A stretch of DNA of 46,410 bases, from the IMG/VR virus record IMGVR_UViG_2721755497_000002, positions 1 through 46,410 of that record; one strand, written 5' to 3'. A program made the translations under genes and the position numbers. The notes beneath the pieces were generated by a model, which was not told the origin of the DNA, ran no database searches, and saw nothing but the letters and a program-made list of their open reading frames with translations. The stretch comes from a virus (taxonomy: Duplodnaviria > Heunggongvirae > Uroviricota > Caudoviricetes). This document shows, piece by piece, positions 982 through 19,913 of the stretch. Position 1 is the stretch's first letter; each line of letters starts with the position of its first letter.

Positions 982-1063
982 AAATTCAATCACTTACACA
1001 TCATTAAGTCAGTGACAAAAATCACACTTGGAATTACTTGGAATATTTTCTTGGAATATTTTC
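982..1063. repeat. attL candidate: tRNA 3' flank with tandem direct repeats (CTTGGAAT x3, including TTGGAATATTTTC x2) overlapping the int 3' end; possible arm-type Int binding sites
   Basis: Direct repeats visible at about 1027-1063, immediately between the tRNA and the integrase stop codon. Confidence 0.3.
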
Positions 1064-2059
1064 AGGTAACGGGACATCAAGTGTTGGTGAAACTTTAACC
1101 TTCCTGTCATAGATTAGCACTTGCCCTTCGGTTTTGTGACCAGAGAAAAGTTGCTTATCCCGGCTGCTTCCTTCATAGTCTGAAATTCCTTTCGCCTTCA
1201 GATCATGAAAGGTGAAGTCGGATAAAATACCTGAAATTTTTCCAGCACGATTTCTTGCTTCTACCCACATTTCGTTAAAGCCTTTGTACATATATCGGTT
1301 GCCGTATTGATTGCTGATCACATAGGCAGATTTTGGTAACTGTTTTGCTTTTTCGATCGCTGCCTGTAATCGTGGACTCCATGCTTTTATCTGTTTTTTT
1401 CCGGTTTTCCCTTGCTGGATGAATATCCCGTCGTTTCCAATCTGTTCCCATTTCAGCGATAACACATCGGAAACCCTCGCTGCACACAGATAGGCAATTT
1501 CCATTGCGATAAAAACAGGAAGAGGTGCAACGCTTAATACTGCCTGGTATTCTTTGTCGGTTACATATCGTTCGCGGTTTTTGGCCTTGAATTTACTTAC
1601 ACCTGCACATGGGTTAGCCTTGACGTACCCTCGCTCATACCCCCAACTGTAAACACGGGACATACTGCTTTTTTCATGGTTGGCTTGCGTTTTACTCTGC
1701 TCCCCTCTTTTGTCCATGTATCGACGGATGTGTTCTGGTTTTATGGAATCCGCTGGTACCTTACCGAATACGGCAAGCAACTTTTTTTGATGTTGCAGAT
1801 AATCTTTTTGTGTTCTTGGACTAAGGTCACTGTAATAGGCGCTGGCGAGGAATTTTTCCCACAAGCGACCGAATGTCATTGCACGATCGCGATTATTTAC
1901 AGTTTCCTCATACTTTTTCCATAAAGCAGCTAAACCATCCTTGATGGCGGTTAGTGTGACAGATTCTCTGGATGTTGGTTTCCATACATAACTATATTTA
2001 TTTGGGTATACATTTGGAGGTAATTTTTCGTGTTCAGGATTTTTCCTTCGTCTTCCCAT
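1034..2059 (-). CDS. int: Tyrosine integrase, lambda Int family
   Basis: 341-aa ORF; N-terminus MGRRRK...LPPN resembles lambda Int; directly adjacent to the tRNA integration site. Confidence 0.9.
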   Translation of the reverse strand: MGRRRKNPEHEKLPPNVYPNKYSYVWKPTSRESVTLTAIKDGLAALWKKYEETVNNRDRAMTFGRLWEKFLASAYYSDLSPRTQKDYLQHQKKLLAVFGKVPADSIKPEHIRRYMDKRGEQSKTQANHEKSSMSRVYSWGYERGYVKANPCAGVSKFKAKNRERYVTDKEYQAVLSVAPLPVFIAMEIAYLCAARVSDVLSLKWEQIGNDGIFIQQGKTGKKQIKAWSPRLQAAIEKAKQLPKSAYVISNQYGNRYMYKGFNEMWVEARNRAGKISGILSDFTFHDLKAKGISDYEGSSRDKQLFSGHKTEGQVLIYDRKVKVSPTLDVPLPENIPRKYSK

Positions 2060-2320: not shown

Positions 2321-4762
2321 TTAAAAATCAGCCTGACTCGGGATCAGTTTTTGCCAGATAGCTGAAACGTATTTTGCCTGGTAACGAGCGTCATCAAGTG
2401 CATTATGGCGCTCACCTTCGAATGGGATAGCAGTTCTGGCATCGAAGTCTATGGCTTTCCCCAGCTCAACGATTGTGCGTACATCGCGATCGTTGCAGTA
2501 GCGCCATGGGCAGGGGATACCCTGTCGTTCGTATGAACGGCGTAAAATCACGTTGTCGAAGTTGGCCCCATTACCCCAGACCTGAACAAAAAATTCACCG
2601 GAGTTTTCGTCGATAAATTCCCGCAATTGCAGTAGTGCATCATCTAACGGGATTTCATCGGTCATAATGGCAGACTGCGCTTCACGTGATTGCTTCAGCC
2701 ACCATTTAATGACGTCACGATCAATGACTCCGCCAGCAGTATCCAGATCGATGGTCTTGCTAAATTCCGGTCCCATATCTCCGGTTTGTGGATCGAAAAA
2801 TATTGCGCCTATTGAGATAATCGGGGCATCGGGATTTATTCCCATGGTTTCAAGGTCGATCATCAGATGAATCCCCGCTCTGCTGGTGGATGTGAGATTA
2901 TGATGACCGTTCGCCTTAATTAAGGGATCTGACGCCTCGCCAGTTTCACTATCGCTGGCATGATGCTGATTGCCGCCAGTGTTCTCCTTGTGCTGATGCG
3001 CAGTGCCTTCCATTTCCTCCGGATCATTTTCCTGAACTTCAGGCTGATTCTCTCCATCGAATATTTCCTGGTATGTTGCGTCACCCATCACCGCACCACA
3101 ATCAGGGCAGTTGCCGCCACCGCTATGACCGCAGGCGGTGCAGATCTTTTCCGGTTCCTGTTGCACTACTGGTTCAGGTTGTTTCGTTTCTGGCTCGTTT
3201 TGTTGCGTATTTGGGCTGTTTTGTTCCGCTTTCTGGTCGTTCTGTTCCGTTTCTTGCTGGTTCTGGTTCACAGAATCGCGAGTCTGGATCCCCTTGACCC
3301 ATTTCGGATCATTAGGGTCGCTAATCCCCTCAACAAATTCACCACGCGATACAGCAAGTAACTTATCGGCGTCAGGCTGGCTGATATTGGCTGCCTGCAT
3401 AATTTTGTTTACTTCGTCAGCGGTGACTTTTACCTGGTTAGCGGAACTCACCTGCGACTGAGCATCCAGCGACTGCGCGTTCTGGCAATGTTCAGTTGTA
3501 TCCGGTTCCATTGTTTCAGTTGTTGCCTGTTCACCTGCCATTGCGTCAGATGGTTGTGGTTTTTCTTCCTCTGTTTCACGTTCAGTAACCACCTCGCGGT
3601 TAATTTCTTCCAGGATATCTTTTTCCGGCGTATGCCGGGCAGCTGTGAGAGTTTCCTTGCTGGGGTTCTCGTGATCAGTTTCCGTCAAATAGGCGTTGAT
3701 ATACCCCTGAAGGCGTCCCGGGTAGTGATAAAATTCAGGGTGTGCGCTTCGGATAAGTGCAAAAATAGCGGCGCGGGAATAGTCCAGAATACCCGGGGTT
3801 GCACGAAGTGCTGAGGACCATTCTTTGAACGGACTTTCTTTTTTCAGGACTACTTCTTTTGCGCGACGATAAACGCTGCCCGGAATTTCATAAATATTAA
3901 AATCCATCGGAAGTGTGGCTGCTGCAATCTCCACATCCAGTGTGTCGAGGGTGTGTACTAAATTCGGATTGCGATCGGTTTTGTTCCCACCGCCAGCATT
4001 AGCACCGGAAGCCGTGCGGGTGATGCGTGAAACACGATTTCCTTTCATCCACTCTTTTGTCAGCAGACCCCGATCAATGTAGTCAGCGTCCAGGTATGCT
4101 TCGAAAAAAGCAGTTATTAGTCCCAGGTCTGAATTACCAGGATTAGGGAAAACTTTGTCAGTGTCACGAACCAGTTTGTGGAGGTCGCGAATCTCCAGCG
4201 AGTCGAGCAGACTGGTTTTATGCGAAATAGCCAGGGCAGTAACAGCCGGTAGTTCTTCAGCCCGTGCAATGTGTAATGCCTGGAGTTCGTCGCGTGAAAC
4301 GTGCGTTACTGGTTTTTCGCTGCCGTGTTGAGCAAGCCAACGAATGGGCAGTTCCTGACCGGAGACAGGCAGAAGCATGCTCTCCTCAATCTCAGTCATG
4401 TCTTCGCCGTTGATGTTGGTATTGTCAGTGCTGGCTGGTTTGTCCTGAACAGAGGGGGAAGGGCCGATAAATGTCATTGTGATGCCATCTTTCCCGCCTT
4501 TTTCATAGCGGTTGCAGAATTCAGTATCAAACACGCCTTCTGGCGGAAGGTCGTCAACAACGGGCAAATTGACGCGGACGGGTTTTTTAAAGTCGTCTTC
4601 ATCATAATCGTTGTCATCCATTGCGGTAATGCAGCGGGAGATTGCAACAGATAATTTTTTTGCTGTAGTCCAGTAAAAACCACCTTTAATTCCCAGGCGT
4701 TTTCTTACTTTGTCATTTTTTGCTTCGCAATATAGTGCAAATTCTTCTTTATCAGTGCTCAT
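2321..4762 (-). CDS. Large phage exonuclease: long acidic N-terminal region with a C4 zinc ribbon and a C-terminal DnaQ-like (DEDDh) 3'-5' exonuclease domain; the type often annotated exodeoxyribonuclease VIII-like in lambdoid prophages
   Basis: 813-aa ORF; C-terminal motifs IDLETMG (Exo I), WGNGANFD (Exo II), HNALDDARY (Exo III); zinc ribbon CTACGHSGGGNCPDCG. Confidence 0.75.
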   Translation of the reverse strand: MSTDKEEFALYCEAKNDKVRKRLGIKGGFYWTTAKKLSVAISRCITAMDDNDYDEDDFKKPVRVNLPVVDDLPPEGVFDTEFCNRYEKGGKDGITMTFIGPSPSVQDKPASTDNTNINGEDMTEIEESMLLPVSGQELPIRWLAQHGSEKPVTHVSRDELQALHIARAEELPAVTALAISHKTSLLDSLEIRDLHKLVRDTDKVFPNPGNSDLGLITAFFEAYLDADYIDRGLLTKEWMKGNRVSRITRTASGANAGGGNKTDRNPNLVHTLDTLDVEIAAATLPMDFNIYEIPGSVYRRAKEVVLKKESPFKEWSSALRATPGILDYSRAAIFALIRSAHPEFYHYPGRLQGYINAYLTETDHENPSKETLTAARHTPEKDILEEINREVVTERETEEEKPQPSDAMAGEQATTETMEPDTTEHCQNAQSLDAQSQVSSANQVKVTADEVNKIMQAANISQPDADKLLAVSRGEFVEGISDPNDPKWVKGIQTRDSVNQNQQETEQNDQKAEQNSPNTQQNEPETKQPEPVVQQEPEKICTACGHSGGGNCPDCGAVMGDATYQEIFDGENQPEVQENDPEEMEGTAHQHKENTGGNQHHASDSETGEASDPLIKANGHHNLTSTSRAGIHLMIDLETMGINPDAPIISIGAIFFDPQTGDMGPEFSKTIDLDTAGGVIDRDVIKWWLKQSREAQSAIMTDEIPLDDALLQLREFIDENSGEFFVQVWGNGANFDNVILRRSYERQGIPCPWRYCNDRDVRTIVELGKAIDFDARTAIPFEGERHNALDDARYQAKYVSAIWQKLIPSQADF

Positions 4763-5406: not shown

Positions 5407-5459
5407 GGGCGGCAGAGCAGTCACGGAGTAAAACTGATACCGCCAAACGTCACCAGAAA
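5407..5459 (-). ncRNA. dicF: DicF small RNA (Hfq-dependent, represses ftsZ)
   Basis: Reverse complement reads TTTCTGGTGACGTTTGGCGGTATCAGTTTTACTCCGTGACTGCTCTGCCGCCC followed by a U-tract; lies between ydfC and dicB as in Qin. Confidence 0.8.
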
Positions 5460-6622: not shown

Positions 6623-6901
6623 TTAGGGAAACTGGCGTCTTGCGTGGATCACGTTTACTACTTCAACGCTTGATGTTGTTACGCGGTATAGAATTATATA
6701 GTTAGGGTGGGCCACAATCTCACGCAAGCCAGGTACTCTGTCGCTTGGTGGGTATAAATACGGATGTTCGGATAATGGCAGCACACAACCCCTTAATCGC
6801 TGCCATAAGCGTTCAGCCGCATCTACGTCGAAACGAGCAATATAACTAGTTATATCATCTAGGTCGGTATCTGCGCTTTCAAGCCATAACACGGGTAACA
6901 T
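6623..6901 (-). CDS. ParE/RelE-family type II toxin (candidate)
   Basis: About 92 aa from internal Met (MLPVLWLESADTDLDDITSYIARF...IHARRQFP); size and composition typical of ParE/RelE toxins; start is 1 nt after the stop of the upstream small gene. Confidence 0.65.
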   Translation of the reverse strand: MLPVLWLESADTDLDDITSYIARFDVDAAERLWQRLRGCVLPLSEHPYLYPPSDRVPGLREIVAHPNYIILYRVTTSSVEVVNVIHARRQFP

Positions 6902-6902
6902 T

Positions 6903-7094
6903 TTACTGCTTGCTCCGTTCCTTCCGCATTTTAGCAAAGCGTTCTGCCATTCTGCGCTCAACTTCGTCATGGGGAATTGCTGGGCGCGGATCTGCAAGGC
7001 TTGTTGCTACTTTCGCACGCAGCCATTCGTTGTAACTGTTTTCTTGTTCAATGGTTTCAAATTCAGAAACCATTGGTGAAAGGGCTCTATTCAT
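6903..7094 (-). CDS. Cognate antitoxin candidate (small DNA-binding protein)
   Basis: 63 aa from internal Met (MNRALSPMVSEFETIEQENSYNEWLRAK...); GGAGG Shine-Dalgarno 4 nt upstream; immediately upstream of and coupled to the toxin gene. Confidence 0.55.
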   Translation of the reverse strand: MNRALSPMVSEFETIEQENSYNEWLRAKVATSLADPRPAIPHDEVERRMAERFAKMRKERSKQ

Positions 7095-7114
7095 GTTTCC
7101 TCCGGTTTTATAAC

Positions 7115-7486
7115 TCAGGCGCGGCGGCATTTTTGCGCCGCAATCCATCTCGCTATGAGATCTTCCATTGATTCTTTTTTCTGCTTTAACTCGCTGATTA
7201 TCTGGCGTTGCTCATCCTCAGGGAAGGCTGAAAAAATCTGCAATAATTCCAGTTGATTAGACGTTAACCCTGCATGTGGTGGAGAAACCTCAGGTTGTTC
7301 TGCGTATTCCACATCTAGATACCCATCCGGCATCCCGTATGTTTGCTCTATTCTTCTGGCAGCCTTTTCTCCAAACGAGGCTCTCCCACTCATTAGTTGA
7401 GATAGGTAGCTCTTCTCTTTGGGTGGCAGAGTTTTATCTTTAAACCACTCCTTGAGACGTAAACGGCGAATTTCTTTTTTTTGCAT
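7115..7486 (-). CDS. Phage repressor, cI/DicA-like (HTH XRE family)
   Basis: 123 aa from internal Met MQKKEIRRLRLKEWF...; HTH region SYLSQLMSGRASFGEKAARRIEQ; divergent from the cro-like gene across an operator-rich spacer. Confidence 0.8.
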   Translation of the reverse strand: MQKKEIRRLRLKEWFKDKTLPPKEKSYLSQLMSGRASFGEKAARRIEQTYGMPDGYLDVEYAEQPEVSPPHAGLTSNQLELLQIFSAFPEDEQRQIISELKQKKESMEDLIARWIAAQKCRRA

Positions 7487-7582
7487 GTGGTAATTATCTT
7501 TAGTAATCACTAAACAAGCAAATACTTGACTTAATGGTTTATTAAACACTAAACTCGCAAAAAACACTAAACCGAGGAAGGT
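7487..7582. promoter_or_regulatory. Immunity-region divergent promoter/operator spacer with three ACTAAAC-containing direct repeats and a rightward TTGACT-N18-TAAACT promoter
   Basis: Repeats atcACTAAACaag, aacACTAAACtcg, aacACTAAACcga; sigma70-like -35/-10 upstream of the cro-like gene. Confidence 0.45.
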
Positions 7583-7885
7583 ATGACATTAAAAGAGTTT
7601 ATTAAATCATTGAGGGTTGGTGATGCTAAGAAATTCGCGGCCAGACTTGGTGTATCGCCATCTTACTTATCGCAAATGGCGTCTGGACGAGCAGCTATAT
7701 CTCCAACCCGCGCCCTTATGATCGAATCTGCTACGGAAGGCCAAGTAAGTAGGGCGGAGCTACGACCCCATGATTGGGAACTTATTTGGCCTGAGTATGC
7801 GAGCGGCATTCGTTTGGGGCAAACGCATGTAGTTCATGCTGAAGGTGATTGTAGTGCATGCTTATCTGATGGAGTTGATTCATGA
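7583..7885 (+). CDS. Cro-like HTH regulator (YdaS family)
   Basis: 100-aa ORF; HTH motif AARLGVSPSYLSQMASGRAAIS; first gene of the rightward early operon. Confidence 0.7.
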   Translation: MTLKEFIKSLRVGDAKKFAARLGVSPSYLSQMASGRAAISPTRALMIESATEGQVSRAELRPHDWELIWPEYASGIRLGQTHVVHAEGDCSACLSDGVDS

Positions 7886-8307
7886 AAATCAAGCATGAGC
7901 ATATTCGCATGGCGATGAATGCCTGGGCGCGTCCGGATGGTGAAAAAGTTCCGGTAGCCGAGATAACCAGGGTTTATTTCGAGCTGGGCATGACGTTTCC
8001 TGAGCTGTATGACGACAGCCATCCGGAAGCCCTGGCCCGTAATACCCAGAAAATTTTCCGCTGGGTGGAGAAAGACACCCCTGATGCGGTTGAAAAAATT
8101 CAGGCGTTACTGCCAGCGATCGAAAAGGCAATGCCGCCTTTGCTGGTGGCCAGAATGCGTAGTCACAGCTCAGCCTATTTCAGGGAGCTGCTGGAGACAC
8201 GAGAACGGCTGGTGAGAGACGCTGATGATTTTATCGCAGTGGCAATCGCCGGTTTCAATCAGATGAACCGTGGTGGCCCTGCAGGAAATATTGTGGCTGT
8301 GCATTGA
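7882..8307 (+). CDS. YdaT-family protein (CII-like functional analogue)
   Basis: 141-aa ORF overlapping the cro-like stop; size and position match Rac YdaT. Confidence 0.6.
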   Translation: MKIKHEHIRMAMNAWARPDGEKVPVAEITRVYFELGMTFPELYDDSHPEALARNTQKIFRWVEKDTPDAVEKIQALLPAIEKAMPPLLVARMRSHSSAYFRELLETRERLVRDADDFIAVAIAGFNQMNRGGPAGNIVAVH

Positions 8308-8372
8308 CTCGCAATATTCATACCGGATCACTTCCGGCAATTTGTGAGTAAAAAGATTCGGTATCAAAAGAG

Positions 8373-9449
8373 GTGAGTATGGCTAACGCCTGGCTCAGAT
8401 TATGGCATGACATGCCAAATGACCCTAAGTGGCGAACAATTGCCAGGGTGTCAGGGCAGCCAATTGCAACAGTGATGGCAGTGTATATCCACCTATTGGT
8501 GAGCGCGTCACGAAATGTCACGCGAGGTCACATTGATGTCACGACAGAAGATTTGGCAAGTGCGCTCGACGTGACAGAAGAGGTAATTGATTCAATTTTG
8601 CAGACGATGCAGGGGCGGTTACTTGATGGTGATTTAATCACTGGATGGGAAAAACGCCAGGTGCTTAAAGAGGACAACGGCAATATTTCGCAAACCGCAA
8701 AATCTCCTGCAGAGCGCAAGAGGGCGCAGCGAGAGAGGGAAAGAAAGCGGGAACAAAATGGCGATTGTCACGGCGCGTCACGAAATGTCACGCACATGTC
8801 ACGACAAGTCACGACAGATAAAGATACAGATAAAGATACAGATCAAGAAGATCAAAACACTATGGTCCATGGCGTAAAAAATGCCACGAACCAGGCAGGG
8901 GATGTTCAGACCGTCAATCTTGGTCAGCCAGCAGGCACGACACCGGAAGCCGATTCAGCGTATGTGCTGAAAGCCGATTCGGGCGCTGTGCAGCAGGTGA
9001 TGACCGCAAGGCCGGAGCAATCACACCAACTGCAGCAGCCTGAAGCCGATTCCGCCATTCAGCGGGAAGCCGATCGGGTAGTCCCGGAAAAAAACGGGCA
9101 GTCTGTGGGACGAGTGGATTATCCGGATGTGTTCGAACAGGTCTGGCGGGAGTACCCGTTGCGTGCCGGGGCAAACCCGAAGAAATCCGCTTTCAGTGCC
9201 TGGAAGGCCAGATTACGCGAGGGGGTGCCACCAGAGGCCATGCTGGATGGCGTGAGGCGTTACGCAAGATACCTGGCGGCTACCGGGAAAACGGGAACGG
9301 AATTTGTTCAGCGAGCGACGACGTTTTTTGGACCGGACCGGAATTTTGAAAACCCCTGGTTGCTCCCGGTAAGCGGCACGAACAACCTGCGTTGTGTGAA
9401 TCATATTTCTGAACCGGATACCGAAATTCCGCCGGGTTTCAGGGGGTAA
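8373..9449 (+). CDS. Replication initiator / replisome organizer (O-like) with a C-terminal DnaC-interaction-type domain
   Basis: 358-aa ORF; N-terminal WLRLWHDMPNDPKW replisome-organizer-like motif; contains internal iteron DNA repeats; directly precedes the DnaC-like loader. Confidence 0.75.
   Translation: MSMANAWLRLWHDMPNDPKWRTIARVSGQPIATVMAVYIHLLVSASRNVTRGHIDVTTEDLASALDVTEEVIDSILQTMQGRLLDGDLITGWEKRQVLKEDNGNISQTAKSPAERKRAQRERERKREQNGDCHGASRNVTHMSRQVTTDKDTDKDTDQEDQNTMVHGVKNATNQAGDVQTVNLGQPAGTTPEADSAYVLKADSGAVQQVMTARPEQSHQLQQPEADSAIQREADRVVPEKNGQSVGRVDYPDVFEQVWREYPLRAGANPKKSAFSAWKARLREGVPPEAMLDGVRRYARYLAATGKTGTEFVQRATTFFGPDRNFENPWLLPVSGTNNLRCVNHISEPDTEIPPGFRG
8505..8858. repeat. Candidate origin of replication: iteron clusters (GTCACG repeats; 19-bp element GCGTCACGAAATGTCACGC present twice) plus an AT-rich GATAAAGATACA tandem repeat, inside the initiator gene
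   Basis: At least eight GTCAC(G/A) copies in two clusters (about 8505-8546 and 8775-8815), followed by gataaagatacagataaagataca. Confidence 0.5.
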
Positions 9450-9455
9450 CTGACC

Positions 9456-10208
9456 ATGAAAGATATCGCGACAGTTGCAGTTGGTATTCTGGAACGCATC
9501 CGCAGACTGGCTCCTGAGCACGTTCCCGTGCCGTACAGTACGACGGAGGAGTGGCGCGAGTGGCAACTTGCCGAAGGCCGGAAATGCTGCGAGGAGATTA
9601 ACCGCCGGAATCGTCAGTTGCGGGTGGAAAAAATCCTGAACCGTTCGGGCATCCAGCCGCTGCACCGCAAATGTTCGTTCGCGAATTACCAGGTGCGGAA
9701 CGACGGGCAGAAACATGCGCTGAGCCAGGCCAAATCCATCGCTGAGGAAATGATAACCGGTTATACAAACTTCGTGTTCAGCGGGAATCCGGGAACCGGA
9801 AAAAATCATCTGGCGGCGGCTGTGGGTAATCGTCTGCTGAAGGCCGGTAAATCCGTGATAGTGGTCACCGTGGCGGATGTGATGAGCGCGTTACATGCCA
9901 GCTATGACGATGGGCTGTCAGGGGAAAAATTTTTGCGGGAACTGTGTGAAGTGGACCTCCTGGTTCTTGACGAAATTGGCATTCAGCGCGAGACAAAAAA
10001 CGAGCAGGTGGTACTGCACCAGATTGTTGACCGCCGGACGGCATCACTGCGCAGTGTCGGGATGCTGACAAACCTGAATCATGCCGCAATGAGCACGCTT
10101 CTTGGTAAGAGGATTATGGACCGGATGACCATGAACGGTGGTCGCTGGGTGAGTTTTAACTGGGAAAGCTGGCGTCCCAATGTCAGCCATCTGAGTGTGG
10201 CGAAGTAA
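9456..10208 (+). CDS. DnaC-like helicase loader (IstB-like AAA+ ATPase)
   Basis: 250-aa ORF; Walker [14 protein letters not shown], Walker B LLVLDEIG. Confidence 0.85.
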
Positions 10209-10230
10209 TTTTTATCCGGAGGAAAATTTA

Positions 10231-10944
10231 ATGGAAACCGTTTTTGACGCACTGAAAGCACTGAAAAAAGCCTCGTCGCACGAGATTGCAGCCCGTCTTG
10301 AAATCAGCCGTGACGATGCTGTTACCGAACTCTGGAAGCTGAAGCGTCGTGGTGAGGCTGATAACAAGGGGTCGATGTGGTGGCCGACGAGTGAGGCAAG
10401 TGAAGCGGTCCCAAAAACCACAGCAGAGATGCTGATTAACGCGATTGAACAGCATGGTCCTCAGTCGGCTGACGAACTGGCGTTAATGTTCGGGATTACC
10501 TCCCGCCGGGCGAATTCATCACTGGCGATGGCAATCAGCAAAGGTCGTCTGATTCGCGTTAATCAGGACGGTAAATATCGTTACTGCATACCGGGCGATA
10601 ATTTACCGACAGAGCCGAAAGCTGCATCGGTAACGGAAACCGATGGTAAAGCCTTTCCTCAGCCAGCAGGTGTTGCGTTACCAGTCCGGGAAGCGGAAAC
10701 ACAGGAAGAAATTAAAACTGAAAGTGTGGCGGTCACAGTGCAGTCACAGCCGTCGTTCACCAGAAAGCATCCGGATAGTCTGATTTTACCATCGCTGCAT
10801 GTGGCTAACCGCGAACTGCGCCGGGCAAAAGGTCAGGTTCAGAAGTGGGAGCGAGTCTGTGCTGCGCTGCGTGAGCTGAACAAGCACCAGGATATTGTTC
10901 GACAGATTACTGATTCATCCTGTTGTGTTGCATCAGAAAAGTGA
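10231..10944 (+). CDS. Hypothetical protein (nin-like region), possible winged-helix repeats
   Basis: ATG at 10231 with GGAGG Shine-Dalgarno; 237 aa; no recognisable catalytic motif. Confidence 0.55.
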
Positions 10945-13821: not shown

Positions 13822-14088
13822 TTTTATACCTTTTGTGTTGTGTGAACGATGAGTATAGTCAGAAATGAGACTGTGAAGGGGGATAGAAAATAATAGTTTG
13901 TTTTTGTAGAATCGCTGCGGGTGCTTGGGGCTATCTGTCTCAGGCATGAACACCAAAAGGCAGATAGAGAAAAGCCCCAGTTAACATTACGCGTCCGGCA
14001 AGACGCTTAACATTAATCTGAGGCCATATCTATGACTTGCACGCGTAGGTTAGCCTCTTACGTGCCGAAAGGCAAGGAGAAGCAGGCT

Positions 14089-14244
14089 ATGAAGCAGCAA
14101 AAGGCGATGTTAATCGCCCTGATCGTCATCTGTTTAACCGTCATAGTGACGGCACTGGTAACGAGGAAAGACCTCTGCGAGGTACGAATCCGAACCGGCC
14201 AGACGGAGGTCGCTGTCTTCACAGTCTACGAACCTGAGGAGTAA
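14089..14244 (+). CDS. hokD: Hok/Gef-family type I toxin
   Basis: Internal Met of ORF 14032..14244 gives MKQQKAMLIALIVICLTVIVTALVTRKDLCEVRIRTGQTEVAVFTVYEPEE, a near match to HokD/RelF as recalled; upstream in-frame extension is consistent with a mok-like leader. Confidence 0.8.
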   Translation: MKQQKAMLIALIVICLTVIVTALVTRKDLCEVRIRTGQTEVAVFTVYEPEE

Positions 14245-18243: not shown

Positions 18244-18319
18244 GGCCCTTTAGCTCAGTGGTGAGAGCGAGCGACTCATAATCGCCAGGTCGCTGGTTCA
18301 AATCCAGCAAGGGCCACCA
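18244..18319 (+). tRNA. tRNA with CAU anticodon (Met or lysidine-dependent Ile2; ileZ-like phage tRNA)
   Basis: 76 nt GGCCCTTTAGCTCAGTGGTGAGAGC...ACTCATAATCG...GGTTCAAATCCAGCAAGGGCCACCA; canonical cloverleaf. Confidence 0.8.
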
Positions 18320-18326
18320 TCTCATA

Positions 18327-18403
18327 CCGCCATTAGCTCATCGGGACAGAGCGCCAGCCTTCGAAGCTGGCGGCGCGGGGTTCGGGTCCTCGATGGCGGT
18401 CCA
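18327..18403 (+). tRNA. tRNA-Arg, anticodon UCG (argN-like phage tRNA)
   Basis: 77 nt; acceptor CCGCCAT/ATGGCGG, anticodon loop CTTCGAA, T-arm CGGGG-TTCGGGT-CCTCG, CCA end. Confidence 0.75.
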
Positions 18404-18416
18404 TTATCTGCACCAT

Positions 18417-18490
18417 GCGGTCATCGTATAATGGCTATTGCATCAGCCTTCCTGGCTGATTATGCGGGGCAATTCCCGCTGACCGCTCCA
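18417..18490 (+). tRNA. tRNA-like element, argO-like but degenerate (non-canonical anticodon loop CTTCCTG and shortened T-loop GCAATT)
   Basis: Acceptor GCGGTCA/TGACCGC with CCA end; anticodon and T-loops deviate from consensus; may be a pseudo-tRNA. Confidence 0.4.
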
Positions 18491-19104: not shown

Positions 19105-19304
19105 TTCTACATCTTTGCAGTAAACAATAATCATAATTGCATGTTTTTTCTGTGGTGGGGCATTTGGCTTCTGTTGCCTGCGATGTATTGTGGACCTGGT
19201 ATCAGCCTGCAGAAAATGCACACAGGTGTGAAGTGTTAAATTCCTCACAACTCAGAACGCAGAATGTTGTCCTGCTTGCGGGGAATTTGTTAAAAGAGTA
19301 CAGC

Positions 19305-19423
19305 ATGGTGAATCCCCCTGAGCGGAGGGGCATAATGACAGATGTTTGGTCGTGTTATCGTATAGGCAAGTTGCGGATTCTGTCTGGTCATTGCAGAATT
19401 CACCGGGAGGCACCCGGCACCAT
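19305..19423. repeat. Repeat unit copy 1 (about 119 bp): ATGGTGAATCCCCCTGAGCGGAGGGGC ... CACCGGGAGGCACCCGGCACCAT with two GC-rich hairpins
   Basis: Termini shared with copy 2 and mutually reverse-complementary (ATGGTG / CACCAT). Confidence 0.45.
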
Positions 19424-19558
19424 GTATTTTCAATATGTTATTGATCATTCTCTTTTTCGGAATACTCTGGTTATGTTTTCCTGTAACTGATAATTAAATC
19501 ACATTTTGTGTAACTGCATATTGTCTGAACGGGATAAGTTTCAGTATCTTCTGAATGT

Positions 19559-19678
19559 ATGGCGAATCCCCCTGTGCGGCGGGGCGTACTGATTTAAGTA
19601 GTCATCCAAGAATGCAGCTGAATGAAAACGCGCTCCATATTAATCAGTGGTGGAGCACCGGGAGGCACCCGGCGCCAT
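19559..19678. repeat. Repeat unit copy 2 (about 120 bp): ATGGCGAATCCCCCTGTGCGGCGGGGC ... CACCGGGAGGCACCCGGCGCCAT
   Basis: Same terminal hairpin modules as copy 1, divergent interior. Confidence 0.45.
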
Positions 19679-19707
19679 ACCGATGATGAAAGTAAATGCG
19701 TCCATCC

Positions 19708-19732
19708 GCCCCTCTCCGGAGGGGCTTTTTTA
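19708..19732 (+). terminator. Strong rho-independent terminator (GCCCCTCtccgGAGGGGC + TTTTTT) upstream of nanS-p
   Basis: 7-bp GC stem, 4-nt loop, T-tract. Confidence 0.6.
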
Positions 19733-19913
19733 TGGGCAAAAAAAGCCCGCTACGAATGGTAACGGGCTGCACAAAATAACAAAATGTGAAGTATTCTAAT
19801 CAGCCGCTGAATAATACCCGACAGTAATTAATCTGTGCAACGGTGCTTTTTCCCGCCTTGCAGGCACCGACTCTCTCATTTGATTTAACGCATTATCCCG
19901 TCCGGGAGGATTC

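What the first reader, a model, noticed from the sequence alone, without database searches (positions are those of the whole stretch)
8505..8858. Iteron clusters and AT-rich tandem repeat inside the initiator gene (candidate ori)
A 19-bp element GCGTCACGAAATGTCACGC occurs twice, about 270 bp apart, each followed by further GTCACG hexamers (at least eight in total). The second cluster runs into a GATAAAGATACA tandem repeat. This mirrors ori-lambda inside gene O, but with the iterons split into two clusters. The repeats impose repeated peptides (SASRNVT / GASRNVT) on the protein.
Basis: partly seen in the sequence, partly recalled or inferred. Interest (0 to 1): 0.4.

Follow-up and report, generated by a model that had tools for sequence, protein, structure and literature searches.

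The report
Two-part prophage replication origin inside initiator gene
The repeats are real and are almost certainly the replication origin of an E. coli lambdoid prophage, built like phage lambda's origin inside its initiator gene but with an extra, strongly conserved second cluster of binding sites 260 bp upstream.

Summary
GCGTCACGAAATGTCACGC occurs exactly twice (8505, 8775). Nine GTCACG copies lie in 307 bp, where 0.15 are expected. They form two phased clusters with 10-11 bp spacing. The second cluster runs into ACAGATAAAGAT x2.9, the least stable duplex of the region.

The gene (8379-9449) encodes a 356-aa initiator (PHROG 3729) and is followed by a DnaC-like loader. The repeats are selected as DNA, not as peptide:
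- The hexamer is read in all three frames.
- In 16 diverged homologues, codons under cluster 1 are fixed at synonymous sites (0.98 against 0.55, p=3.5e-7).
- Cluster 2 keeps 3-6 phased copies although its peptide varies.

The motif changes in both clusters together (GTCACG, GTAACG, CGAACGC). It follows the initiator's N-domain and not the neighbouring regulators, the C-domain or the loader. A second N-domain family with no detectable similarity, and probably Rac's YdaU, show the same two-cluster layout.

Most likely mechanism: the N-domain binds the iterons, the DNA opens at 8814-8858, and a DnaT-like C-terminal tail recruits the DnaC-like loader with host DnaB. Binding and origin activity are inferred, not shown. 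This is a variant of a known kind and of moderate interest.

The parts
8379..9449 (+). Initiator gene (356 aa). The AF2 model (mean pLDDT 71.3, moderate) gives a winged-helix-like N-domain (aa 1-~90), a basic helix (aa 110-130) and a low-confidence, probably disordered stretch from aa 130 to the end of the modelled part (aa 159). Residues 160-356 were not modelled: by sequence they are a low-complexity linker to about aa 230, a C-terminal domain and a DnaT-like tail.
   Evidence: ORF. PHROG 3729 'replication initiation protein', E=1.2e-253, full length. Annotated 'phage replisome organizer' in the identical E. coli M3 record. AF2 model of aa 1-159. ATG 8379 is preceded by AAGAGGTGAGT.
8507..8543 (+). 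Iteron cluster 1: GTCACG at 8507, 8517 and 8538, and GTCACA at 8527, spaced 10/10/11 bp. It codes for aa 43-55, the end of helix 3 and the loop before the HTH.
   Evidence: Synonymous sites of these codons are invariant in 16 diverged homologues. Copy number changes through in-frame indels in L002, L003, L006, L020, L025 and L030.
8570..8575 (-). Single inverted iteron copy (GTCACG on the minus strand), 33 bp downstream of cluster 1. It codes for D64-V65-T66, the turn of the HTH.
   Evidence: In 16 class-A loci, Val65 is GTG wherever the residue is Val (14/14), and Thr66 is ACA in 85% of the 13 that have Thr. A minus-strand copy at gene nt 193 is present in most class-A loci.
8767..8813 (+). 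Iteron cluster 2: five direct GTCACG copies at 8767, 8777, 8787, 8798 and 8808, spaced 10/10/11/10 bp and read in frames 1, 2, 0, 2, 0. It codes for the low-confidence (probably disordered) segment after the basic helix.
   Evidence: All 21 class-A loci keep 3-6 copies at 10 bp (50 cases) or 11 bp (9 cases) spacing, although the encoded peptides differ.
8814..8858 (+). Candidate DNA-unwinding element: ACAGATAAAGAT x2.9 and then GATCAAGAAGATCAAAA. It is A-rich on the + strand and codes for the DKDTDKDTDQEDQ linker.
   Evidence: It is the least stable 40-bp window in 7000-10300. In all 21 class-A loci the last iteron is followed within a few nucleotides by a purine-rich, GATA-containing tract, AGATAAAGATA... 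in most of them. The same GATAAAGATACAGATAAAGAT is present in Rac ydaU.
9387..9446 (+). C-terminal tail LRCVNHISEPDTEIPPGFRG, similar to the C-terminus of E. coli DnaT. It is the inferred contact for the DnaC-like loader/DnaB complex.
   Evidence: Weak phmmer matches to PDB 2ru8, 6aep and 9zbt (E=0.043-0.12, tail only). A weak NCBIfam DnaT hit at aa 334-356. Rac YdaU, also followed by a DnaC-like gene, ends ...LPDSAIPPGFRG. Five of the 23 displayed homologues in alignment A1 end in or near the same motif; their partner genes were not examined.
9456..10208 (+). DnaC/IstB-type helicase loader, 83% identical to Rac YdaV.
   Evidence: PF01695 at E=4e-20. NF009043 at 476.8 bits, above its cutoff of 389. 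PHROG 50. tblastn against Rac.
7583..8307 (+). Upstream cro-like (YdaS family) and cII-like (YdaT family) genes. The initiator and loader lie just downstream on the same strand, so rightward transcription is inferred to pass through the origin, as in lambda. No transcript data support this.
   Evidence: Pfam and PHROG hits. A promoter-like site at 7526-7555, although such hits are at chance level in this stretch. Gene order.

Best explanation
The segment 8505-8858 is the vegetative replication origin of a lambdoid E. coli prophage, and it lies inside the gene of its own initiator.

Proposed mechanism:
1. The initiator's N-terminal winged-helix-like domain binds the short iterons (core GTCACG, roughly WTGTCACGAC). 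They are spaced one helical turn apart, so the bound proteins line up on one face of the DNA.
2. The five copies of cluster 2 (8767-8813) nucleate an oligomer directly next to the weak, A-rich (GATAAAGATACA)n tract (8814-8858), which opens.
3. The C-terminal part of the initiator, ending in a DnaT-like tail, brings in the DnaC-like loader (9456-10208) with host DnaB.
4. Cluster 1 (8507-8543 plus the inverted copy at 8570) lies 260 bp upstream inside the DNA that codes for the binding domain. It is a second set of sites for the same protein. It most likely works as an auxiliary or enhancing site through a DNA loop, or as a control site.

What is shown: the repeats, their phasing, DNA-level selection on both clusters, the concerted change of motif in both clusters, linkage to the N-domain only, and the instability of the AT tract.

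What is inferred: binding by the initiator, unwinding at the AT tract, loader recruitment by the tail, and the role of cluster 1.
For: 1. Non-random repeats. Nine GTCACG copies lie in 307 bp where 0.146 are expected, P=7.5e-14. The 19-mer occurs twice where 0.02 are expected.
2. Selection on DNA rather than peptide.
- In cluster 2 the hexamer is read as CH, SR and VT, one reading per frame.
- L002 and L003 (N-domain 84-87% identical) keep five copies with different peptides.
- All 21 class-A loci from gamma- and beta-proteobacteria keep 3-6 copies at 10 or 11 bp spacing.
- In 16 loci with saturated synonymous sites, the top-codon fraction is 0.98 for cluster-1 codons and 0.55 elsewhere, Mann-Whitney p=3.5e-7. 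Ser44 TCA, Val47 GTC, Thr48 ACG, Gly50 GGT, His51 CAC, Val54 GTC and Thr55 ACG are each 16/16.
3. Concerted motif switching. The motif is GTCACG, GTAACG or CGAACGC, and it is always the same in both clusters of a locus. A shared 6-mer repeated at least twice in both zones was found in 28 of 31 loci.
4. The motif follows the N-domain only.
- The C-domain and partner can be swapped with the iterons unchanged. The partner is a lambda-P-like loader in L002, L003 and L006, and a DnaB-like helicase in P. aeruginosa L199.
- L004 has an 86.5%-identical YdaT but AAGGGGC repeats. More than 17 GTCACG loci have no homologue of the window's YdaT, Cro or repressor.
5. Same layout in another N-domain family. 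59 of 70 distinct loci share a 7-mer repeated in both zones, and cluster 2 is sometimes inverted (EGASKGL against EAPSKPL). Rac ydaU shows a similar pattern.
6. Position and anatomy match ori-lambda: iterons and then an AT tract at mid-gene, in a stretch the AF2 model does not resolve as folded. The AT tract is the least stable duplex of the region.
7. Recombination breakpoints in E. coli fall at the cluster 2/linker junction. BLAST matches cover gene nt 1-458 or nt 476-1069.
8. Literature: the lambdoid origin lies in the middle of the initiator gene and consists of iterons and an AT-rich tract (PMC7466680). Phage L gene 18 has six 11-bp repeats proposed as its origin (PMC8022706).
Against: - There is no experimental evidence for this family. 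No paper in the searched library describes GTCACG iterons or an origin for this initiator.
- The N-domain has no significant Pfam or PDB relative. HTH_Crp_2 scores E=0.011 and Phage_rep_org_N scores E=0.12, both below their cutoffs. All Foldseek hits have E>0.27. Its DNA-binding role therefore rests on a moderate AF2 model (pLDDT 71) and on annotation.
- Linkage of the motif to the N-domain is partly trivial, because the sites lie inside that coding sequence.
- The role of cluster 1 is unknown, and lambda needs no such cluster.
- The prophage may be defective, since its integrase and tail-fibre genes are frameshifted. The origin need not be active in this strain.
Confidence: 0.8

Rival explanations
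1. The repeats are initiator-binding sites whose main job is control rather than initiation. They could act as an operator or roadblock inside the gene for autoregulation, or as handcuffing or incompatibility sites like P1 incA. The real unwinding site would then lie elsewhere.
For: Cluster 1 sits inside coding DNA, far from any AT-rich tract. Separated iteron clusters with control roles are known in plasmids (own knowledge: P1 incA, RK2, R6K). The relative orientation of the two clusters is not conserved in the second N-domain family, which fits looping or control.
Against: In all 21 class-A loci, cluster 2 is followed within a few nucleotides by a weak purine-rich, GATA-containing tract. That tract is the least stable duplex of the replication region. 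This is the anatomy of ori-lambda. No other iteron cluster exists in the 46-kb window. A control role for cluster 1 is compatible with the main explanation.
Confidence: 0.1
2. The repeats bind another phage regulator, such as the CII-like YdaT protein, Cro or the repressor. Alternatively they form an antisense promoter array: the reverse complement GTGACA resembles a -35 hexamer, and lambda CII sites are direct repeats with a 10-bp period.
For: There is one promoter-like hit on the minus strand at 8791-8764. A CII-like gene lies directly upstream. The 10-bp direct-repeat geometry recalls TTGC-N6-TTGC (own knowledge).
Against: Promoter-like hits are at chance level, 3 found against 3.0 expected. 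GTCACG iterons persist in at least 17 loci that have no detectable homologue of the window's YdaT, Cro or repressor. L004, with an 86.5%-identical YdaT, has different repeats. L004 and L005 have different upstream regulators but the same repeats.
Confidence: 0.05
3. The DNA repeats are a by-product of repeated peptides (SASRNVT and GASRNVT) needed by the protein, or of replication slippage in a low-complexity linker, and have no function as DNA.
For: The 19-mer is repeated in frame and gives the same peptide twice. The linker is low-complexity and varies in length.
Against: The hexamer is read in all three frames. Cluster-2 peptides differ between homologues while the hexamers and their phasing persist. 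Synonymous sites of cluster-1 codons are invariant (0.98 against 0.55, p=3.5e-7), while the Arg49 codon between two hexamers uses four codons. In the second family cluster 2 can be inverted, which gives an unrelated peptide from the same DNA motif.
Confidence: 0.02

Closest known systems
ori-lambda inside gene O (lambda and Stx phages)
   Same: The origin lies mid-gene at the junction between the N- and C-terminal parts of the initiator. Iterons are immediately followed by an AT-rich, strand-asymmetric tract. The position is nearly the same: gene nt 349-475 in O against 389-470 here. The gene sits downstream of cro and cII in the rightward operon. The N-module with its origin and the C-module with its loader are exchanged as separate units. 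Background from PMC7466680.
   Different: Lambda iterons are four 18-bp elements with inverted symmetry, about 20-24 bp apart. Here the core is a 6-7-bp direct repeat every 10-11 bp. Lambda has a single cluster and no iteron-like sequence elsewhere in O. The N-domain does not match the Phage_rep_O family, since Pfam gives no hit. The partner here is a DnaC-like loader rather than P.
Phage L / P22 gene 18 origins
   Same: [quoted passage not shown] These are short, helically phased direct repeats inside a lambdoid initiator gene, as here.
   Different: The repeat sequence and the initiator family differ. The partner is a DnaB-type helicase (gp12). No distal second cluster is described. That origin is also only inferred from sequence.
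Rac prophage replication module (ydaU-ydaV, oriJ)
   Same: Gene order is the same: repressor, ydaS, ydaT, initiator, DnaC-like loader. YdaV is 83% identical to the window's loader. YdaU ends in the same ...IPPGFRG tail. It contains GATGTTCAA-type repeats at gene nt 145 and 232 and at 391, 425 and 448, followed by AATAAAGATACAGATAAAGAT. Rac is reported to have an active origin, oriJ (PMC3945230).
   Different: The YdaU N-domain is DUF1376, and the iteron sequence differs. I could not find where oriJ was mapped at sequence level, so equating it with these repeats is my inference.
SPP1 G38P replisome organizer / oriL
   Same: The origin lies inside the initiator gene. Direct repeats (AGAAACGACAG x2) are followed by AT-rich repeats (AACAATGATAACAA x3) at mid-gene. 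NCBI names the window's protein 'phage replisome organizer'.
   Different: No detectable sequence relationship: hhalign probability is 0.1 and Pfam Phage_rep_org_N is below threshold (12.8 bits against 23.3). The host is Gram-positive, and the loader (G39P) and helicase (G40P) are different. That G38P binds oriL is from my own knowledge.
Iteron plasmids and P4 with separated iteron clusters (P1 incC/incA, RK2 oriV, R6K, P4 ori/crr)
   Same: Two separated clusters of the same initiator-binding repeat, one next to the unwinding element and one at a distance (own knowledge, not tested here).
   Different: Those clusters lie outside or flanking the rep gene, and the repeats are 17-22 bp long. Here both clusters are inside the coding sequence, one of them within the DNA-binding-domain coding part, about 250-280 bp apart.

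Membership tests
Lambda O-type initiator/origin (Pfam Phage_rep_O) | [quoted passage not shown] | tested here: met
   Cluster 2 and the AT tract are at gene nt 389-470 of 1071. Lambda's are at nt 349-475 of 900.
Lambda O-type initiator/origin (Pfam Phage_rep_O) | N-terminal domain homologous to lambda O | tested here: not met
   No Pfam family at E<=0.01 for the whole protein. At E<=5 only HTH_Crp_2 and Phage_rep_org_N appear for the N-domain, both below threshold.
Lambda O-type initiator/origin (Pfam Phage_rep_O) | About four iterons of 18-19 bp with internal inverted symmetry | tested here: not met
   The repeats are direct, with a 6-7-bp core and a 10-11-bp period. The lambda iterons were read from NC_001416.
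Lambda O-type initiator/origin (Pfam Phage_rep_O) | Partner is a lambda P-type loader | tested here: not met
   The downstream gene is of the DnaC/IstB type. Relatives L002, L003 and L006 with the same N-domain and iterons do pair with a P-like protein.
Phage replisome organizer (Pfam PF09681, SPP1 G38P) | N-terminal domain matches Phage_rep_org_N at the curated threshold | tested here: not met
   12.8 bits, E=0.12, against a cutoff of 23.3 bits. The aligned stretch is aa 5-78 to profile positions 1-78. hhalign of the family alignment against G38P gives probability 0.1.
PHROG 3729 'replication initiation protein' | Full-length profile match | tested here: met
   E=1.2e-253, aa 1-356 against profile 1-356.
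Iteron-type replication origin (general) | Multiple copies of a short repeat, helically phased, more than chance gives | tested here: met
Iteron-type replication origin (general) | Adjacent easily melted (AT-rich) element | tested here: met
   25% G+C. It is the least stable 40-bp window in 7000-10300. A comparable purine-rich, GATA-containing tract follows cluster 2 in all 21 class-A loci.
Iteron-type replication origin (general) | Repeats conserved as DNA and co-varying with the cognate initiator | tested here: met
Iteron-type replication origin (general) | Specific binding by the initiator, and autonomous replication of the segment | not testable with these tools
   This needs EMSA or footprinting and a replication assay.
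DnaC/IstB helicase-loader family (downstream gene) | AAA+ loader domain above the curated cutoffs | tested here: met
   PF01695 at 72.7 bits (cutoff 24.1). NF009043 at 476.8 bits (cutoff 389). The DnaC equivalog NF005931 scores 303 bits, below its cutoff of 357, so the protein is DnaC-like and not DnaC itself.
Rac-type module (ydaU/ydaV, oriJ) | DUF1376 initiator N-domain | tested here: not met
   YdaU matches PF07120 at E=2.7e-26. The window's protein does not.
Rac-type module (ydaU/ydaV, oriJ) | YdaV-like loader, DnaT-like C-terminal tail, GATAAAGATACAGATAAAGAT tract | tested here: met

The most novel reading that the evidence does not exclude
The distal cluster, placed inside the DNA that codes for the initiator's own DNA-binding domain, is an obligatory second half of a looped, bipartite origin. 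This two-cluster layout, about 250-280 bp apart with the same motif in both, would be a general design of proteobacterial prophage origins. It appears in at least two, and probably three, initiator N-domain families with no detectable similarity to one another: this one, the O157-type MRDYAKVSPRFW family, and DUF1376/Rac. It could couple passage of RNA polymerase or ribosomes through the initiator gene to origin firing, or provide handcuffing-type copy control. A more extreme version is that the loop peptide encoded by cluster 1, which is the most variable part of an otherwise highly conserved N-domain, helps to set iteron specificity.
Probability: 0.3. Interest if true: 0.55.

Novelty: new variant of a known kind. 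Interest (0 to 1): 0.4.

Why it matters
This initiator gene gives a BLAST match in 2,530 of 5,426 complete E. coli genomes. Its N-domain is widespread in prophages of gamma- and beta-proteobacteria, including P. aeruginosa phages. Even so, I found no description of its origin.

Defining the origin gives:
- a testable replicon for a very common prophage type;
- a set of natural specificity classes (GTCACG, GTAACG, CGAACGC) for studying how initiator and iteron co-evolve;
- a clear example of a DNA signal overriding codon choice inside a gene;
- a conserved second iteron cluster whose role, whether looping, control or coupling to gene expression, is open.

The DnaT-like tail next to a DnaC-like gene also offers a way to study how DnaT-type proteins recruit DnaB/DnaC. 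The 2026 preprimosome structure paper calls that step unknown (PMC13377028).

Tried and rejected
- DnaA boxes: TTWTNCACA with up to 1 mismatch is at chance level (80 found, 80.1 expected) and nothing is notable at the origin.
- Rfam: no RNA family in 7000-10500 at E<=1.
- Promoter and terminator scans are at chance level.
- PDB sequence search found only the short DnaT-like tail, at weak E-values.
- Foldseek of the N-domain model against the PDB gave only weak winged-HTH regulators (E>0.27), so no fold family can be assigned beyond 'winged-helix-like'.
- hhalign of the family alignment against SPP1 G38P and against the O157-type N-domain found no relationship. These were low-power, single-sequence targets.
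- A viral-contig scan with the window's N-domain returned only 99%-identical copies. These served only to show that the iterons are nearly invariant within E. coli: 69 of 71 have the same nine positions.
- The plasmid search found no plasmid that clearly uses this module as its replicon. The two 50.9-kb P. aeruginosa 'plasmids' look like circular phage genomes.
- The Stx-phage replication-region paper PMC8044961 does not mention iterons or DnaC.
- The peptide-repeat explanation and the binding site for a neighbouring regulator explanation were considered and rejected.
Full report
**Context**

The window is identical to a lambdoid prophage of E. coli strain M3 integrated at tRNA-Ser next to mtfA. 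The early-right region reads as follows:
- repressor, 7115-7567 on the minus strand;
- cro-like YdaS-family gene, 7583-7885;
- cII-like YdaT-family gene, 7882-8307;
- a 356-aa protein, 8379-9449;
- a DnaC/IstB-type ATPase, 9456-10208;
- DUF1627, DUF977 and further genes.

The 356-aa protein matches PHROG 3729 'replication initiation protein' over its full length (E=1e-253). RefSeq calls it 'phage replisome organizer'. It has no Pfam family above threshold.

**1. The observation**

- The 19-mer GCGTCACGAAATGTCACGC occurs at 8505 and 8775 and nowhere else, even with 3 mismatches allowed. 0.02 matches are expected.
- Nine of the window's 31 GTCACG copies lie in 8507-8813. From the background rate 0.146 are expected, so P(>=9)=7.5e-14.
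- Cluster 1 consists of 8507, 8517, 8527 (GTCACA) and 8538, plus an inverted copy at 8570-8575.
- Cluster 2 consists of 8767, 8777, 8787, 8798 and 8808.
- Spacing is 10-11 bp.
- Cluster 2 abuts ACAGATAAAGAT x2.9 at 8814-8848. This tract has 25% G+C, is A-rich on the top strand, and is the least stable 40-bp duplex in 7000-10300: -43.4 kcal/mol against a gene mean of -57.1 +/- 3.8.
- The peptides SASRNVT and GASRNVT are correct.

**2. DNA signal or peptide?**

Three independent lines of evidence say the signal is in the DNA.

(a) Because the spacing is 10 bp, successive hexamers fall in different reading frames. The same GTCACG is translated as Cys-His, Ser-Arg and Val-Thr.

(b) E. coli relatives whose N-domain is 84-87% identical (L002, L003) keep five hexamers in cluster 2. 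Their peptides differ: CHDESRICHDMSRRVTT and CHDESRRVTHLSRQVTT against CHGASRNVTHMSRQVTT. Their cluster 1 has six copies through a 21-bp insertion that adds seven residues to the protein.

(c) A genome-wide scan gave 28 loci from Aquitalea, Bordetella, Pseudomonas, Acidovorax, Serratia, Rahnella, Chromobacterium and other genera, with N-domains 42-85% identical.
- In 21 loci with the GTCACG motif, cluster 2 has 3-6 copies spaced 10 bp (50 cases) or 11 bp (9 cases).
- In these loci cluster 1 starts at the same codon in most.
- The distance between the clusters is 250-281 bp in 20 of the 21.
- The last hexamer is always followed within a few nucleotides by a purine-rich, GATA-containing tract, AGATAAAGATA... 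in most loci.
- In a gap-free codon alignment of 16 of these loci, synonymous sites are saturated. Conserved residues use their commonest codon in 0.55 of sequences on average.
- The ten codons that overlap cluster-1 hexamers use a single codon in 0.98 (Mann-Whitney p=3.5e-7).
- Ser44 is always TCA, Val47 GTC, Thr48 ACG, Gly50 GGT, His51 CAC, Val54 GTC and Thr55 ACG.
- The Arg49 codon between two hexamers uses four different codons.

The sequences are phylogenetically related, so the p-value is only indicative. The contrast with immediately adjacent codons is nevertheless clear.

**3. Who binds the repeats?**

The motif is not the same in all relatives. Four loci have GTAACG and three have CGAACGC. 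In every one of these loci both clusters carry the same motif.

A second N-domain family has no detectable similarity to this one. It begins MRDYAKVSPRFW, is found in O157-type prophages, and is fused to the same C-terminal module and a DnaC-like loader (L004, L005).
- It has AAGGGGC/CTTCGAA repeats in the same two places.
- Among 70 distinct viral loci of this family, 59 share a 7-mer repeated at least twice in both zones.
- In many of them cluster 2 is inverted relative to cluster 1, which turns the peptide EGASKGL into EAPSKPL.

Rac's YdaU (DUF1376) has GATGTTCAA-type repeats at comparable positions, followed by nearly the same GATAAAGATACAGATAAAGAT tract.

The other components vary independently of the motif.
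- The C-domain and the partner protein change freely with the iterons unchanged. The partner is a lambda-P-like loader in L002, L003 and L006, and a DnaB-like helicase in a circular P. aeruginosa phage-like element, L199.
- The upstream regulators do not track the motif either. L004 has an 86.5%-identical YdaT but different repeats, and at least 17 GTCACG loci have no homologue of the window's YdaT, Cro or repressor.

The only constant partner of a given motif is the initiator's N-domain. This linkage is partly trivial, because the sites lie inside that coding sequence. It does, however, exclude the obvious alternative binders.

**4. The protein**

An AlphaFold2 model of residues 1-159, built on a 46-sequence alignment, has mean pLDDT 71 and more than 87 for most of residues 11-80. 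It shows these elements:
- three helices (2-11, 16-25, 29-45);
- a loop (46-55);
- a helix-turn-helix (56-63, 67-77) with a beta-hairpin wing (78-88);
- a disordered stretch;
- a long basic helix (110-130);
- disorder from residue 130 on.

Foldseek finds only weak similarity to winged-HTH regulators such as CRP, MarR and GntR (E>0.27). Pfam gives sub-threshold HTH_Crp_2 and Phage_rep_org_N hits.

Cluster 1 therefore codes for the end of helix 3 and a surface loop. That loop is exactly where homologues carry insertions that change the iteron number. The inverted copy codes for the turn of the HTH. Cluster 2 and the AT tract code for the stretch after the basic helix that the model does not resolve as folded. 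The lambda iterons likewise occupy the middle of gene O, between its two parts (PMC7466680).

The last 20 residues, LRCVNHISEPDTEIPPGFRG, resemble the C-terminus of E. coli DnaT. The evidence is a set of weak tail-only PDB matches to 2ru8, 6aep and 9zbt (E=0.043-0.12) and a weak NCBIfam DnaT hit. The dnaT gene precedes dnaC in E. coli. Rac YdaU, which also precedes a DnaC-like gene, ends in the same motif, and several homologues in alignment A1 do too. I infer that this tail contacts the loader/DnaB complex. How DnaT itself recruits DnaB/DnaC is still unknown (PMC13377028).

**5. Mechanism**

Confidence that this is the origin is about 0.8. The proposed steps are:
1. Initiator monomers or dimers occupy the phased hexamers of cluster 2 and oligomerise.
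2. They stress the adjacent (GATAAAGATACA)n tract, which opens.
3. The C-terminal part recruits the DnaC-like loader with host DnaB.
4. Cluster 1 is bound by the same protein. It either stabilises the complex through a loop of about 260 bp or serves a control function.

Transcription from the cro promoter is expected to pass through the origin, as in lambda. Binding, opening, recruitment and the role of cluster 1 are all inferences.

**6. Comparison with known systems**

The design, an origin inside the initiator gene made of iterons and then an AT tract, is classical for lambdoid phages (PMC7466680). Short 11-bp repeats have been proposed as the origin of phage L (PMC8022706).

- The initiator does not meet the tests for the lambda O family.
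- It also fails the Pfam threshold for the SPP1-type replisome organizer.
- Lambda has no second cluster.
- Separated iteron clusters are known in plasmids and in P4 (own knowledge), but not, to my knowledge, inside the binding-domain coding sequence.

I found no paper that describes these iterons.

**7. Verdict**

It belongs to a known kind, the lambdoid iteron origin inside the initiator gene. It represents an uncharacterised and very common initiator family: the gene gives a BLAST match in 2,530 of 5,426 complete E. coli genomes.

It adds one variant feature, a conserved and co-evolving distal iteron cluster. That feature recurs in N-domain families with no detectable similarity to this one. 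Interest is moderate (0.4).

Noticed in passing
window 8946-9074: GAAGCCGAT occurs four times (8946, 8970, 9042, 9066) in the low-complexity linker of the initiator, giving the peptides PEADSA, KADSG, PEADSA and READR. The same segment is present in L004 and L005, which share the C-terminal module. Whether this is a DNA signal or a peptide repeat is unknown.
   Followed up: no
window 9387-9446; L034 (Rac ydaU) 3418-3474: The initiator ends in a 20-residue tail that resembles the C-terminus of E. coli DnaT (...SEPDxxIPPGFRG), and the next gene is DnaC-like. This mirrors the host dnaT-dnaC operon. It suggests that the tail is the loader contact and that dnaT-dnaC and these phage modules share ancestry.
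   Followed up: partly
E. coli genomes, gene nt 1-458 against nt 476-1069 of window 8379-9449: BLAST matches in other E. coli prophages break exactly at the junction between cluster 2 and the AT tract. The N-domain with its origin and the C-domain with its loader are exchanged as separate modules, with P-like, DnaC-like and DnaB-like partners. The origin and linker act as a recombination joint.
   Followed up: partly
L004, L005 and L038-L117 (O157-type initiators): A second initiator N-domain family (MRDYAKVSPRFW...) has AAGGGGC/CTTCGAA repeats in the same two-cluster layout, followed by a (GAACAG)n tract that codes for QEQEQE. In many loci cluster 2 is inverted relative to cluster 1.
   Followed up: partly
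L034 (E. coli K-12 Rac) 2620-3477: ydaU contains GATGTTCAA-type repeats at gene nt 145 and 232 and at 391, 425 and 448 (the last inverted), followed by AATAAAGATACAGATAAAGAT. This is a candidate for the sequence-level position of oriJ.
   Followed up: no
window 6623-7094 (-): A RelE/ParE toxin and RelB antitoxin pair is inserted between ydfA and the prophage repressor.
   Followed up: no
window 1009-2059 (-) and 44098-45505 (+): The integrase and a tail-fibre gene are annotated as frameshifted in the identical E. coli M3 record, so the prophage may be defective.
   Followed up: no
window 5407-5458 (-), 13919-14094 (+), 19274-19737 (+), 18244-18490 (+): Rfam finds DicF sRNA next to dicB, a sok antitoxin RNA upstream of hokD, and two tandem STnc100 sRNA copies. 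The RefSeq record adds a tRNA Ile/Arg/Gly cluster after the Q antiterminator.
   Followed up: no
window 8764-8791 (-): The reverse complement of the iteron (GTGACA) resembles a -35 hexamer. One promoter-like site on the minus strand falls in cluster 2, but such hits are at chance level in this stretch.
   Followed up: partly
L026, L031, L033: Three relatives with the same N-domain (two Ventosimonas MAGs and a Pantoea) show no repeated 6-mer in either zone. L031 has a long (GATAAA)n tract only. Either their iterons are too degenerate to detect or they use another arrangement.
   Followed up: no
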